Assembly: GCA_965250185.1 (NCBI GenBank)
Contig: OZ252293.1
Span: 1,364,329-1,428,328, forward strand
Direction: 5' to 3'
From: Vicinamibacterales bacterium
GTDB lineage: Bacteria; Acidobacteriota; Vicinamibacteria; Vicinamibacterales; G965250185
DNA: 64,000 bases
Position numbers: made by a program. This document shows, one piece after another, positions 6,001 to 18,000 of this stretch (the first letter of the stretch is position 1; every line of letters begins with the position of its first letter).

Positions 6001-9000
6001 GAGGCTCGGGCGAGTATCGTCGCTCGCGGCGACACGCCCGCGCCGCTGATCGTGGAGCCAGCGGGTGCAGAGATCGCTCAGCCGGCCGACGCGTTCGAGG
6101 TGGTCGGCGGCGACGCGCCCGAGCCGGATCCCGATGGACGGATCTACCGCGACCCGGGCCGCTTCATCACGGTCGAGTCGGCGGCCGTGCCGCCGATCGT
6201 CGCGCCGGATGGCGTGACGCGCGTCCACCTGGTGTTCAGGCCGGTTACCGAGATCAAGGCACACTGGAACAACGAGGTGGATCCGCTGGAGGTGTGGATC
6301 GACGAGCCTACAGGCTGGACGCTCGAGCGCCACCGACTCACCGCGCCGAGCCCGCCCGAGTTGGTGAGCTCGGAGGCGCGGCAGGTGCAACTGGAGTTGA
6401 AGGCGAGCCCGACGCTGACGCCGGGTTCCACGACCGTTCGGGGCTACGCGCTGTACTACGTCTGTGAGGACGTCGACGGCACGTGCCTGTATCGTCGCCA
6501 GGACCTCGCGGTCGACGTCGTCGTCGAGCGCTAGTGTTGGGAGATCCGCTCGGCTAAAGCCTTCGCGCTACGTCGACACGGATGCCAAGCGCCAGCGTCA
6601 CGCGAGTTCGAGATCCGCTCGGCTGCCCCTCGGCTTCGCTCGGGAGGATCAAGCCTTCGTGCTACGTTAATTCCGAGCGGCCGCGACGTTGGCCGTCTAC
6701 GAGCCCTCGACGATCTCGGCCGTACTCGCCTCGAAGTCCGTCTGCAGGACGTAGTGGTGGTACAGGTGGCGAATGGTTCCGTCACGCCCGATGAAGACGA
6801 TGATCGGGACGTAGTTCACCTCGTAGGCGCGGAGGAGCCCCAGGTCTTTTCCCGCCAGCATGTCGAATGGCAGGCCGTAGGCCTCCTTGTAGCGGCGAAT
6901 GAAATCGCCGTCCTTCGCCCAGACATTCAGCGTGATGATCGTCAGGTCGGTGCCCTCGTACTGGGCGTGGGCTCGCTTGAGAAACGCGATGACCTGCGTG
7001 CAGTAGTGGCACATGTTGTGCGTGAAGTAGAGGATGACCGGCTTGCCCAACACATCCTCGAGCGCATGCACCTCACCGTCCTCGTCCGGTAGGGCGAAGA
7101 GTGGGGGCGGCTGACCCACCGTGGCAATCGTGTCGGCCTCCGGGGCCTTCTGAGCCGCCTGAGCCCTGACCGGGGCCCGAGACGCCAGCGCGGTCGCGGC
7201 CAGGAGGATTGCGATGAGCACATGTAGTCGCATGACGACTCGCCTCACGACATCTCAACGCGTGTAATCGTGTATTTGATGATGTTCTCGTAGTTCATCG
7301 CGTAAATCAGCGGAATGCCGTCGGATTCGGCGTAGGCGAAGGCGAAGGTCGACAGAGGATCTCCGCCCTGCGTCGGGTTCAGCGTGACCGAGCGGCCCAC
7401 GGATACCTGGAAGCGGTTTGGTGACAGTCGGCCGAAGAAGAACTCGCCGTTGTGCTCCGCCTTGTCGGCCTCCGAGACGTCGACCGGCACCCATCCCTTC
7501 GACGGCGTGTAAAAGCTGAGCCAGCAGTGCGAGCCGGTGCAATCGCCCTCGAGCTGACCGCTCGTCGAGATGCCGTTTTCCGGGAACGCCAGTGGAAAGC
7601 CCTGCTCCCAGCGAACCGGAATGCCGCGGGAGATCATCACGGCCATGAAGAGCGCGTGGTAGTCGTCGCACTTGCCTCGACGGTGACGCATGATCCAGGC
7701 CGTGTCGCCGGTGCCGCAGCCTGGAATCGACGAGTCGTAGAACAGAATCTCACCAATGCCATCGAAGACGCGACGTCCCACCTCGAACGGGTCGGTTGCA
7801 TCCCCGATGAACTCCCGCGCGAACGCTTCGACATCGTCGGTCACCCGCACCCGCTGCGTGAGCTGCAGGTATTTCTGGGACTCGGCCTCGCCCAGCGTCG
7901 CGGCCCGAATGCCACCGCGCGTCCGCGTCACGCGATAGCGGACTTCCACACCGAACGGCTCCAGTAGTTCCCGGGTTGCCGCGTGGAGCATTCTCGTACC
8001 GAACGTCGTGTCGGACATCGTCTGAACCGGCACCGCGCTGTCGATCTCGAAGTTCGAGATCTGCTGCGCCGCGTCGGAGGGTGGCAGGGGGATCCAGATC
8101 TGGACGTCCTCGGCGTCGCTGGGCAGACTCCGGATCTGCGTGCGGTAGCTGACGTCGAACTCCATCAATGAACAGGCCGCCGGGTCGTACGTGGCGGCAG
8201 CGTTCAGGGACACGCCGAGTCCTCGCGTCAGCGCCGCAGCGCTTCCGAGACCCGCCAGACGGAGGAAGTCACGCCGATCGAGGTCACTCGAGGGAAGGCT
8301 CCAACGCATGTCGCATGTCCTCCTCATCCCAAAAGTATGTATCGAAGTTCGCCCGCATCGAGCCATCCGGCCCCACGACGTAGACGCGGATCGTATGTTC
8401 GATGACGAATCCATCCGTCACTGGCGTGCGCGTGACCTCGATGCCGAGATCCGTCAGGAAGTCCTGAATGCCGGCCGTCGTCCCGTTCGCGAACAGCCAT
8501 CGACCGTCGCGGGTGGCGTCTATCTCGTGCTTGTCGAAGTGGCCCAGGACCTCCTCTGCGGTGTCGTCGTCTGGCTGGACGGAGACATGAAGGTACTGGA
8601 TCCGCTCGGGTGCGCCGAGTTCGGCGTCGAGCTCTGCCAGGAAGAACGTGACGACCGGACACGCGAATATGCACTTCGCGTACGTGGGCAGAACGATCGT
8701 CGTCTTGCCCAGGAAGGACGCGTTCGTGATCGGGCGGCCGTCGTAGTTCACGAGCGTGAGCGGCGGAAAGGCCGGCGGCTCCTGCGCCCGAAGCGGCATC
8801 TGCGTGAGAATCAGCGCGGTGGTCGCCAACGCCAGGAACGAGCGCGACTGTGCCGTCTGCATCGTCTTCACCCCGGCCTACCGGGCCGCGACCTCCACCG
8901 TGATCTCCGTCGGTCCGCTGCCGGAGACCGCGACCGACCGCCACTTCGACGCCTCGCCGGCGTGCCAGACCCAGACGTCGTGGGTGCCGGCCGGGACATT

Positions 9001-15000: not shown

Positions 15001-18000
15001 AGGCCGGCTCGTCCTTGAGCAGCACCATCTGCTCGCCCGAGATGTCGATCAGCTGATCGTTCTCCGGCTTGAGCGGCCCGACGTTGATGAAGCGATCCTT
15101 CGAGATCTTGTCGAGCGAGACCAGATACCTGCCGTCGGCCTCCTTCGTCTCGGCCATCGACGCCATCGTGTGGCCAGCCTGGTAGTGGATGTCGAGCCGA
15201 TCGAGCACGGCTGTCTCACCCTCCTGTGGATTTGCGTAGAGGTCGATCGCCGTCTGGATGTTCCACTTGACTATCTGGCTGTCGATGAACAGCGACGTGT
15301 AGGCGTTGCCGCGGCCGTCGAACGTCGTGTGGAGCGGCCCCAGACCGACCTCGGGCTCGGCCACCACCGTATCGCGTGGCTCGATGGTGCCGGCGAAGAC
15401 GTCATCCAGCATGCGAAGGTCGATCACCGAGGTCGTGGGCGAGACCTTGCCGCAGACCACGGCGAAGTTCCCGTCGGGGCTGATGTTGACCCCGTGAGGA
15501 TTCTTGGGGACCGGGATGTAGGCTGTGAGCCCACTGCCAGCCGAGCCGTCGAGCACCTTGATGCCGTCGACCGTCTCGTAGTCGTTGTTCGCCAGCGCCG
15601 CCTTGATAGCCTCCCAGTTGAACACCACGAGAGCGTCCCGGTCGCTTGCCAGCATCTCGGAGATCGTGGCGCCACCCTCAGTGTTGTAGGACGTGGCGAA
15701 GGAGTACTTGCCGGTGTAGTCGGTCGCTGCCAGGTCGAGGTTCGTGGGTGTCGTCACCTGGGCCACGATCTCCATGCCCGCCGCATCGACGATCGTGTGG
15801 ACGCCGCCGTAAGTGGAGGCGTCGAGCGTGTCGCCGCGCCCGTCGTTGTTGACCGGCGTACGGAACTCGCTGTTGAGGATCACCCATTCGGTGGTGGGTA
15901 CGCGCTGCGGGAAGATGCCGTGCGTGCCCTGCGTATGGGGGATGTTGATCGTGGCGTCGACCTCGAGGATGTCGACCCGGATCCGCGCTAGCCGGTTGTT
16001 CGCCTTGTCGTTCACGAACAGCCACTTCCCGTCGTACGTCCCGTCGACGTACGACCCGTGGACGTGGTGCGTGTCACCCGCGACCAGGCCGCCGAGAAAG
16101 GGCTTGGTCTCGTCGGTGATGCCGTAGCCGCTGCCGGGGTCGATGTTCCAGACCGGGACGCGTTTCACGACACGCATCGACGGAAGGCCCAGCACCCGGA
16201 TCTCTCCGGAGTGGCCACCGCTGAAGAAGCCGTAGTAGTCGTCCAGCTCTCCCGGCAGGACCTCGTGATCGGCGGCGTCGCTCGCCGTGCCTTGCTCGCC
16301 CTCCTGCGACCCGCCGCCGCAGCCCAGGGAGAGGCACATCGCGGCGGCCGCGATCGAGGTCATCAAGAATCGCGGTGAAATCATGAGTTCGTCTCCTTCA
16401 GGTTGCCGTGCATGCTCGTTGGTGATGCTGACGCTGCCGCCGCGCCTACTGGCCCGCCTGTGAGCCCTTCATCAGATCCAGACAGAACGACACCAGATCC
16501 CAGCGGTCCTGCTCTTCGGGCATGGCTTCCTCGTACGACGGCATCGGCGTGCCGTCGAGCCCGGTAATGAATGTCCGGTAGATGACCTCGGGGGAGGAGC
16601 CTGCCTTCAGGGGGCCCGACGTGAAGTCGAACGCGACGATCTTGTCGCCCCAGCTGTCCTGAAGGGTCGCCGACGCCGGTCCGTCGCCCGTGCCCTGCGC
16701 TCCGTGACACTGATGACACTGCATCTTCTCGTACATGGCCGCGCCTCGCTCGGTCGACGCCAGCGTCCCGACGTATGACGGCATGCTGATCGGGATCGGC
16801 TCGCCCTGCGAGTCCTGCTCCCAGCGGGGGGAGAACGTCTTGATGAAGGCGATGACGTGTCCCCGATCGGCCTCGGACAGGTCGGTGTGCGACGGCATGC
16901 CAGATCGACTGATGCCATCGGTCACGATTCGCATGAGGTCCTCGTCCGTGGGCAGGATGCCGGTTGGCGTGCTGCGGAACTTGAAGACGCCCGCCGTGAA
17001 GTCTCGCGGGTAGATCGCCGTCACGAGGCCGTTCGTTTGTGCCCGATGCACGATGCCGACCAGGCCCTTGCCGTCACCCTGGTCGCCATGGCAGATGACG
17101 CATCGAGAGTCGTAGACGGCATTGCCGCGCTCGACGTCCTGCGCCAGAGCCCTCGGCGCCGACAGCAGTCCGGCCATCGCGGCCAGGAGGAGAACGGTCA
17201 GTGCGTGTCTCATTCGTCGACCATGCCTTTCTTGAAAACCTGCGGCGTTGGGGACTCGCTCGCGCCAGGACTTGGCCGCTGTCGCACCAGATGTAGAAAT
17301 ACTCACGCTGGGCCGGCCGAACAGCGACACACAGAGTGTCGTTGGGTTCGCTCGGCGATCGTATGATGGCCGTCATACTCCCCGTCAGTTGGCGGTCACG
17401 CCACGATCGACCGCGGCCTACCACAGGATCGAGATTACCGAGGTCGGGGGGCCAGATTTCGTGTGATCGAGGAGGAGAATCGGGAATTCGTGCTGCGAGT
17501 CGGTTGCTTCGCCGTGGTGCTCGTGGCCATGCCGATGGCGGTGGCTACTCCGGCGCCTCGCGACGTTCGTGAGATCGGCTCCCACGTCTCGCGGCGGTTT
17601 GCCTCAGCGGAGCCGAACGACGTCGTCTGCGAGAACAGCGGGCCGACGTGGAGGTCGAGGCCGGGTGCCGCATACAGGGCCGGCGGCACGCTGATGTCGG
17701 CCAGGTAGAGTTCGCCGACCCGGCCAGCGACCTCTGCGGCGCGCAGCCCGACCTTGGGGAGTGCGAGCGTCATCGTTGCCGTCGCTCGGATGGTCGGCTT
17801 GTGCACCGTGCCGCTCGTGGCGTCGATGCCCGATGGTGCATCGAGGGCCAGTGTGGGAGCGGCGCTCCGGTTCGCCCACCCGATCAGGTCGGCCGCCAAG
17901 CCACGGGGGGCACCCCGTAGGCTGTAGCCGATGAGCCCGTCGAGGATGATTGAGGGCGATGGCTCGTCGTCGAGCGGGACCGCGTCAGAACATCCAGTTG

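What a model noticed while it worked through the whole genome (the two positions that open the first line are those of the whole stretch)
6697..17213. Tat-less lipoprotein clade I N2O reductase with NosR-NosD fusion and SCO in place of NosL
The nos cluster (cyt c, nosZ, nosR-nosD, nosF, nosY, X, sco, transglutaminase-like) encodes a clade I NosZ whose twin-arginine signal is replaced by a lipoprotein-type signal, one fused NosR-NosD chain and an SCO1 gene, with no nosL hit. It likely marks a distinct export and maturation mode for N2O reductase, shared by Acidobacteriota, Myxococcota, Binatota, Gemmatimonadota and some Nitrospirota. It breaks the Tat+nosR = clade I, Sec+nosB = clade II rule used to classify N2O sinks.
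Evidence so far: NosZ scores 786 on the Tat/clade I model, 468 on the Sec model, 189 on clade III. Tree of 84 rows: G000 is in a 23-row branch (support 99) sister to Tat-type Nitrospirota/Aquificota, together sister to proteobacterial clade I. In that branch the readable N-termini lack RRxFL (Cys lipobox-like in most Acidobacteriota rows), 19 loci have a ~1100-aa NosR+NosD ORF and 16 an SCO gene. No NosL Pfam row in G000. Searches 24, 26, 27, 35, 36 found no fusion report.
(Added by a program. Inside this text positions count along the whole contig: contig position 1,364,329 is position 1 of the stretch shown here. "Call 12" and the like, gene names such as g00115 and contig names such as C1 are that model's own, and its searches are not shown. 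The text may have been shortened before it was handed on; [...] marks where a part breaks off. The agent that wrote the report below was given it as the finding of a first reader that could run no searches.)

Follow-up and report, generated by a model that had tools for sequence, protein, structure and literature searches.

The report
Tat-less clade I N2O reductase
One branch of clade I nitrous-oxide reductase, the enzyme that destroys the greenhouse gas N2O, lacks that clade's twin-arginine export tag and nearly always the copper-chaperone gene nosL, and encodes its helpers NosR and NosD as one chain, so it likely leaves the cell and receives its copper by a route not described for clade I.

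Summary
The cluster is real. NosZ is clade I by profile and tree: a 14-row branch (100/99) nested among Tat-bearing enzymes; one origin with clade II is rejected (p-AU 0.0004). None of 73 scored leaders has RRxFL, though tatC is in 24 of 25 genomes. nosL is in 2 of 25 branch genomes against 24 of 25 others; no nosB; nirS or nirK over cut-off in 3 of 25.
Corrections: the lipobox is confined to the Acidobacteriota sub-branch (33 of 73; 40 are plain Sec-type). SCO and a NosR-C/NosD fusion are shared with the Tat-type sister group, where SCO and nosL coexist. The gene in nosL's place is X, a predicted cupredoxin whose Cys/Glu form tracks nosL absence. The fusion joint is NosD's own signal-like segment, likely cut. 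This copy has a real nosR frameshift; close strains are intact. The scan noted the fusion before on other DNA (e1-1468335). Export route and copper path are inferred; nothing is cultured or assayed.

The parts
16446..17213 (-). Diheme c-type cytochrome with export signal; likely electron donor to NosZ
   Evidence: Pfam Cytochrome_CBB3/Cytochrom_C, two stretches; directly before nosZ in branch and sister loci
14579..16384 (-). nosZ, clade I N2O reductase, 601 aa; leader without RR, Cys22 lipobox-like; CuZ and CuA ligands kept
14330..14548 (-). 5' piece of nosR (signal and start of the FMN domain), cut off by a one-base loss near 14336
   Evidence: intact in 19 relatives
11244..14288 (-). Rest of NosR (flavinylation motif DAISGAT, predicted membrane helices, CxxxCP and 4Fe-4S motifs) fused in frame to NosD (beta-helix, His/Met/Met surface triad kept)
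12492..12566 (-). NosR/NosD joint: basic stretch, hydrophobic helix, Pro, A-x-A; NosD's own signal-like segment, predicted SPase I site
   Evidence: 42 of 52 rows with [AVS]-x-A
10357..11247 (-). nosF ABC ATPase
   Evidence: synteny
9537..10370 (-). nosY permease
   Evidence: synteny
8878..9534 (-). Gene X: exported protein with predicted cupredoxin fold plus carboxypeptidase-regulatory-like domain; His/His/Cys/His/Glu invariant; sits where nosL usually sits
8284..8871 (-). SCO1/SenC protein with CxxxC and distal His
7245..8312 (-). Transglutaminase-like protein with canonical RRxFL Tat signal and Cys-His-Asp triad; role unknown
6697..7248 (-). ResA/TlpA-like CxxC redoxin; likely keeps SCO or CuA cysteines reduced
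   Evidence: part of the cassette in branch and sister

Best explanation
This is a clade I nos cassette whose NosZ has lost the twin-arginine motif, and so is likely exported unfolded by Sec and likely matured outside the cell without NosL or NosB. Shown: clade I placement inside Tat-bearing relatives, no RRxFL, lipobox-like Cys in Acidobacteriota and A-x-A leaders elsewhere, the NosR-NosD fusion, and no nosL, nosB, nirS or nirK in G000. Inferred steps: (1) apo-NosZ passes Sec, then is lipid-anchored by Lgt/LspA in Acidobacteriota or released by signal peptidase I in the others; (2) NosR-NosD inserts as one chain, and the internal NosD signal carries NosD out and is cut, giving 1:1 NosR and NosD; (3) NosD on NosFY takes copper at its kept His/Met/Met site; (4) SCO with the redoxin serves CuA, as for cytochrome oxidase, and the cupredoxin-like X is the best candidate for NosL's job; (5) electrons come through NosR and the diheme cytochrome c. 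Most carriers would be non-denitrifying N2O sinks. G000's own copy is likely impaired by the nosR frameshift.
For: Tree with ultrafast bootstrap: Tat-less 14 rows 100/99, with Tat sister 100/100, inside clade I 100/100, and a further Tat-bearing row (P0184) outside these at 100/99; union with clade II rejected, p-AU 0.00043. Leaders: 0 of 73 RRx[FL][LFM] in the branch against 42 of 44 Tat motifs in the next hits; branch leaders more hydrophobic (mean best 15-mer 2.11 and 2.45 against 1.83). Tat is available: tatC in G000 and 24 of 25 genomes, and the cassette's own transglutaminase-like gene keeps RRxF in 14 of 16 branch loci. lgt and lspA in G000; apbE in G000 and in 7 branch loci. nosL 2 of 25 branch, 17 of 18 sister (15 over cut-off), 7 of 7 proteobacterial genomes. 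X: pLDDT 93 model, top matches all cupredoxins; H, H, C, H, E invariant in 20 branch rows and 3 RBG-16-64-22-type rows, which have Tat NosZ but no nosL; the other 21 sister loci examined show Gln for the second His where read and Ser for Cys where read. SCO distal His in 15 of 16 covered branch rows, 0 of 8 sister rows. Joint motif 42 of 52. nirS 2 of 25, nirK over cut-off 1 of 25.
Against: Signals were scored by regular expressions and hydropathy, not SignalP; 9 of 73 leaders hold an RR somewhere and P0072 fits a loose Tat pattern; the plain Sec-type leaders are long (about 40 aa), Gly-rich and followed by basic residues, as Tat leaders are. The X/nosL pattern rests on about two independent lineages, and L025 has both the Cys/Glu X and a nosL. 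X could be an electron carrier. The A-x-A test had no shuffled control, and 10 of 52 rows missed the strict pattern. The nirK model may miss divergent NirK; MAG completeness was not given for the 25 genomes. No RNA holder, isolate or activity is known for any member. The window's own nosR is broken.
Confidence: 0.6

Rival explanations
1. One reading: SCO itself replaces NosL as donor to NosD, and X does something else.
For: SCO in 17 of 20 branch loci that reach X; its distal His is kept in the branch and lost in the sister group; in L025 nosL stands where sco stands in the others.
Against: SCO and nosL share a locus in L037, L038, L044, L056; the three nosL-free RBG-type genomes have His-less SCO but Cys/Glu X; SCO-type proteins are tied to CuA in print (PMC6530538, PMC3475470 passages).
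Confidence: 0.2
2. No dedicated replacement: nosL was simply lost because it matters only when copper is scarce; X is a pseudoazurin-like electron carrier and the export switch is a neutral change of leader.
For: NosL is needed for activity under copper limitation in Paracoccus (PMC6530538 passages); X has a cupredoxin fold; leaders changed type at least twice inside this group (Tat to Sec, Sec to lipobox).
Against: A diheme cytochrome and NosR already offer electron paths; X keeps Cys/Glu and a second His where nosL is missing and loses them where it is present.
Confidence: 0.35
3. NosZ still leaves by Tat, through a degenerate single-Arg motif or by riding on the Tat-tagged transglutaminase-like protein.
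For: tatC kept in 24 of 25; a Tat-tagged gene is in the cassette; several Acidobacteriota leaders read S-x-R-F-L; riding on a partner's signal is known for Tat (PMC10924467, abstract start only).
Against: The residue before Arg varies freely (P, S, T, L, Q, K, W); leaders are more hydrophobic than the sister's; the Tat-tagged gene is also in the sister group, where NosZ needs no ride.
Confidence: 0.1
4. For G000 alone: the cassette is decaying and this organism no longer respires N2O.
For: Real one-base loss removes NosR's signal and part of its FMN domain; a split YjeF-like gene lies just upstream; four IS elements in the window.
Against: All other cassette genes are full length against relatives; an in-frame ATG follows the stop by about 40 bases; close strains are intact.
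Confidence: 0.5

Closest known systems
Clade I nosRZDFYL(X) clusters (Pseudomonas stutzeri, Paracoccus denitrificans, Cupriavidus necator)
   Same: NosZ in clade I (about 46-50% identity to proteobacterial NosZ), nosR present, nosDFY, no nosB, copper ligands kept
   Different: No Tat motif, nosL nearly always missing, NosR fused to NosD, extra diheme cytochrome, X, SCO, transglutaminase-like and redoxin genes; nirS/nirK mostly not found
Tat-type clade I NosZ of Nitrospirota/Aquificota (sub-clade noted in PMC11033732)
   Same: Sister group; same gene order from cytochrome to redoxin; NosR-C/NosD fusion in 21 of 33 loci
   Different: They keep RRxFL, split NosR in two, mostly keep nosL, have His-less SCO, Cys-less X and a second X paralog
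Clade II (Sec, nosB) clusters, e.g. Luteitalea pratensis (PMC13122619), Bacillus azotoformans (PMC3475470)
   Same: Sec-type or lipobox-like leader, cytochrome c beside nosZ, SCO nearby, often non-denitrifying
   Different: Different NosZ clade (union rejected); no nosB here; nosR present
Tat-bearing clade II NosZ of Chloroflexota (PMC11409646)
   Same: Known breach of the clade/export rule
   Different: Mirror case: there clade II with Tat and nosB, here clade I without Tat and with nosR

Membership tests
Clade I NosZ | Falls in clade I in NosZ phylogeny | tested here: met
   AU test
Clade I NosZ | Above cut-off of TIGR04244, below TIGR04246 | tested here: met
   786 and 468 against cut-off 625
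Clade I NosZ | Twin-arginine signal | tested here: not met
   0 of 73 leaders; pattern-based, no SignalP
Clade I nos cluster | nosR present | tested here: met
   NF046105 match 1e-118 but under its cut-off of 1000; fused to nosD; frameshifted in G000
Clade I nos cluster | nosL present | tested here: not met
   0 in G000; 2 of 25 branch genomes
Clade II NosZ | Clade II phylogeny | tested here: not met
   p-AU 0.00043
Clade II nos cluster | nosB after nosZ | tested here: not met
   profile from clade II loci hits those loci only, not G000 or any clade I locus
Clade II NosZ | Sec-type signal | tested here: inconclusive
   Leader looks Sec/lipoprotein by pattern and hydropathy; route not shown
Bacterial lipoprotein | Lipobox Cys after an uncharged hydrophobic stretch | tested here: met
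   Cys22; 28 of 76 fit a recalled PROSITE-like pattern, 33 of 73 a looser one; lgt, lspA present
Bacterial lipoprotein | Lipid actually attached | not testable with these tools
   needs labelling or mass spectrometry
N2O reductase | CuZ histidines and CuA ligands | tested here: met
   alignment to 5i5i; motifs in 62-76 of 76 branch proteins
Clade III L-NosZ | NF052460 above cut-off, lactonase propeller | tested here: not met
   188.7 against 700
Cupredoxin (gene X) | Cupredoxin fold | tested here: met
   Foldseek top rows are cupredoxins, best E 1.5e-5, target TM 0.72, partial cover; Atlas PF00127 clusters
Cupredoxin (gene X) | Type 1 His-Cys-His-Met site | tested here: not met
   Glu stands where the paralog has Met; copper binding untested

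The most novel reading that the evidence does not exclude
A third build plan for classical N2O reductase: a clade I enzyme that went back to Sec export, matures without NosL and NosB, and gets its CuZ copper from a new chaperone, the His-Cys-His-Glu cupredoxin X, docked on a NosD cut from a NosR-NosD polyprotein, in mostly non-denitrifying sinks across at least five phyla.
Probability: 0.3. Interest if true: 0.8.

Novelty: new variant of a known kind. Interest (0 to 1): 0.62.

Why it matters
Clade I versus II is read from leader type, nosR/nosB and habit (denitrifier or pure sink), and databases name these proteins 'TAT-dependent'. This branch mixes a clade I enzyme and NosR with a Sec-type leader and mostly no nirS/nirK, so surveys would count likely N2O sinks as denitrifier-type. 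Whether the export route has functional meaning is called unclear in PMC11409646; a Tat-less branch with a Tat-bearing sister of the same gene order is a natural pair to test it. It also points to a way of building CuZ without NosL.

Tried and rejected
Assembly artefact for the fusion: rejected, 56 of 60 database hits span both parts. Homopolymer error for the frameshift: unlikely, the missing base is not in a run. Tat loss because hosts lack Tat: rejected. nosL absence from incomplete MAGs: unlikely, tatC was found in 24 of the same 25. Primer blind spot: not shown; the clade I pair fits 5 of 23 branch, 0 of 32 sister and only 5 of 17 proteobacterial genes at up to 2 mismatches each, the clade II pair 0 of 23, so the control fails too. 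EPHD as clade I mark: also in clade II representatives, dropped. No RNA holder listed. No sigma-70-like promoter found. Complex prediction of NosD with X was not available. A second read lay over the rest of the cassette was not obtained, so the split YjeF-like gene is unchecked. Rows dropped: 9 loci from the first tree (4 duplicates, 5 partial), 6 long branches before, 3 of 76 branch and 4 of 44 sister leaders unscored. Table S9 of PMC11033732 (signal calls) was not visible, the file was cut; PMC6601269 is not held.
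Full report
Observation. The minus strand from 17213 to 6697 holds diheme cytochrome c, nosZ, nosR-nosD, nosF, nosY, X, sco, a transglutaminase-like gene and a redoxin, with short gaps or overlaps. NosZ scores 786 on TIGR04244, 468 on TIGR04246 and 189 on the clade III model and aligns with solved clade I enzymes over all copper ligands. Its leader has no RR and a Cys at 22. 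The 1014-aa ORF joins NosR and NosD domains. Its true start lies in a 72-codon piece at 14548 that is out of frame. Contigs of the possible source sample match the window exactly; contigs of two other studies have one more base at 14336 and read through. G000 (one contig, 97.94% complete) has no match to NosL, NirK or NirS, no nosB by a profile built from clade II loci, and has tatC, lgt, lspA and apbE. The nearest named NosZ rows are Acidobacteriota MAGs; I did not place the host by marker genes. Among 60 same-order genomes 4 carry this NosZ type and 16 a distant, clade II-like one.

Placement. With leaders trimmed, 91 rows give a 25-row branch (SH-aLRT 97) sister to 32 Tat-type Nitrospirota/Aquificota rows (98), together 99. 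Adding 18 representatives from the 50%-identity library and two named references, then dropping 6 long branches, gives Tat-less 100/99, with its sister 100/100, with proteobacteria 100/100, and one more Tat-bearing row outside at 100/99. Holding the branch with clade II costs 138 log units, p-AU 0.00043. So the Tat motif was lost inside clade I. Named carriers are labelled Acidobacteriota, Myxococcota, Binatota, Gemmatimonadota, Krumholzibacteriota, NCBI 'Nitrospirae' and one Woeseiaceae; CG2-30-70-394 is marked non-Nitrospirota in GTDB in the supplement of PMC11033732.

Leaders. The best 76 of 120 listed homologues form the branch (score gap 931 to 865). Of 73 scored, none has RRx[FL][LFM]; 33 have a lipobox-like Cys, 40 a plain leader, 39 of them with an A-x-A-like end by pattern; 9 have an RR elsewhere. 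Of the next 44, 42 show the Tat motif and 2 begin inside the leader. Branch leaders are more hydrophobic (rows are kin, so the p value overstates). In named loci the Cys type is limited to the Acidobacteriota sub-branch, and similar Cys leaders occur in clade II NosZ of the same order and after RR in Rhodanobacter. Lipid anchoring is therefore a late, local feature. tatC is in 24 of 25 branch genomes and the transglutaminase-like gene keeps RRxF in 14 of 16: the loss is specific to NosZ. These are pattern calls, not SignalP.

Fusion. Full NosR-NosD in 20 of 27 branch loci (window included), separate in 2 (one genome), 5 cut short. In 33 sister loci NosR is split; its C-half is fused to NosD in 21, separate in 7, 5 cut short. 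In 19 proteobacterial loci none is fused (16 separate, 3 cut short). A search with the joint returned 60 proteins, 56 with both parts. The joint follows the last ferredoxin cysteines and reads as basic stretch, hydrophobic helix, helix breaker and A-x-A (42 of 52 strict), like the leaders of free NosD in the sister group. Hydropathy fits an inside ferredoxin and outside NosD (inferred). I read it as a polyprotein likely cut by signal peptidase I; a lasting tether is not excluded. I reached this before seeing that an earlier report of this scan (e1-1468335) says the same for another genome; that is not independent support. NosD keeps His784, Met786, Met808 in all 53 rows, matching H207/M209/M231 of 7o0y; their role as copper site is recalled.

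Copper supply. NosL: 2 of 25 branch, 17 of 18 sister, 7 of 7 proteobacterial genomes (50 of 79 loci were given), and 3 of 5 more sister genomes. SCO is in 17 of 20 branch loci that reach X and in 8 sister loci, 4 of these with nosL in the same locus. SCO keeps its distal His in 15 of 16 covered branch rows and 0 of 8 sister rows. X follows nosY. Its model (pLDDT 93) matches cupredoxins and Atlas clusters with PF00127. Two His, Cys, His and Glu are invariant in 20 branch rows and in three RBG-16-64-22-type rows, the sister genomes in which no NosL was found at all. The other sister loci have a Cys-less X and usually a second paralog with CxxHxxM. Against: about two independent events only, and L025 has both. 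SCO plus a CxxC redoxin is the usual CuA kit (SCO/CuA link in PMC6530538 and PMC3475470 passages; redoxin link recalled).

Habit. NirS family in 2 of 25 and NirK over cut-off in 1 of 25 branch genomes, two more partial hits. Most look like non-denitrifying reducers, with the caveats of MAG gaps and model range.

Literature. Seen: passages of PMC11409646 (rule and Chloroflexota exception; meaning of the export route unclear), PMC11828985, PMC11033732 (Tat-type Nitrospirota sub-clade of clade I; 25, supplement passages 56, 59, 62, Table S9 not visible), PMC8528874, PMC3475470, PMC13685413, PMC6530538, PMC11102522, PMC8940171; whole main text of PMC13122619 (45, 49: 481 of 491 nosZ-bearing Acidobacteriota genomes have clade II, SCO beside clade II nosZ; 'signal', 'nosR', 'nosD' have 0 hits in its supplement). 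So members of the branch have been counted as clade I, but searches showed no report of a Tat-less clade I NosZ, a NosR-NosD fusion or this cassette. Subscription papers (Jones 2013, Sanford 2012, Hallin 2018, Hein and Simon 2019, Mueller 2022) were not seen and may mention exceptions.

Verdict. Real and conserved; a new variant of a known system. The solid part is a clade I N2O reductase that lost Tat, nosL and mostly nir while keeping NosR. Everything about export and maturation is inferred from sequence, and the window's copy is itself damaged. Interest 0.62.

Noticed in passing
window 17435-18318 (-): YjeF-N family gene split over two overlapping frames, a second likely frameshift just upstream of the cassette.
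   Followed up: no
window 18353-21102 (-): Molybdopterin oxidoreductase (sulfite oxidase type) with twin-Arg leader, a small c-type cytochrome and a gene without Pfam match, upstream on the same strand.
   Followed up: no
window 26956-28208, 40493-41700, 41823-43028, 53858-55110: Three two-ORF integrase-core IS elements and one ISAzo13-type transposase.
   Followed up: no
window 33641-40073 (+): PD-(D/E)XK nuclease and UvrD helicase-nuclease pair, AddAB-like.
   Followed up: no
L035-L072, L095, L097 (Tat-type sister loci): NosR is split into an FMN-domain gene and a membrane/ferredoxin gene, often fused to NosD; a second X paralog with CxxHxxM; cytochrome bd-like gene after the cassette in 10 loci.
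   Followed up: partly
L025-L028, L031, L033 upstream of the cytochrome: Rrf2-family regulator before the cassette in six non-Acidobacteriota branch loci.
   Followed up: partly
window 7245-8312 and homologues: Tat-tagged transglutaminase-like protein keeps its Cys-His-Asp triad in all 16 branch rows, while several sister rows lose the Cys or His; role in nos clusters unknown.
   Followed up: partly
L086, L088, L090, L091: Rhodanobacter-type clade I NosZ leaders combine RR with a lipobox-like LAGC.
   Followed up: no
G000:C1:4639516-4645001: apbE, an FMN-binding/ferredoxin pair weakly like NosR and an X paralog lie together elsewhere in the genome.
   Followed up: partly
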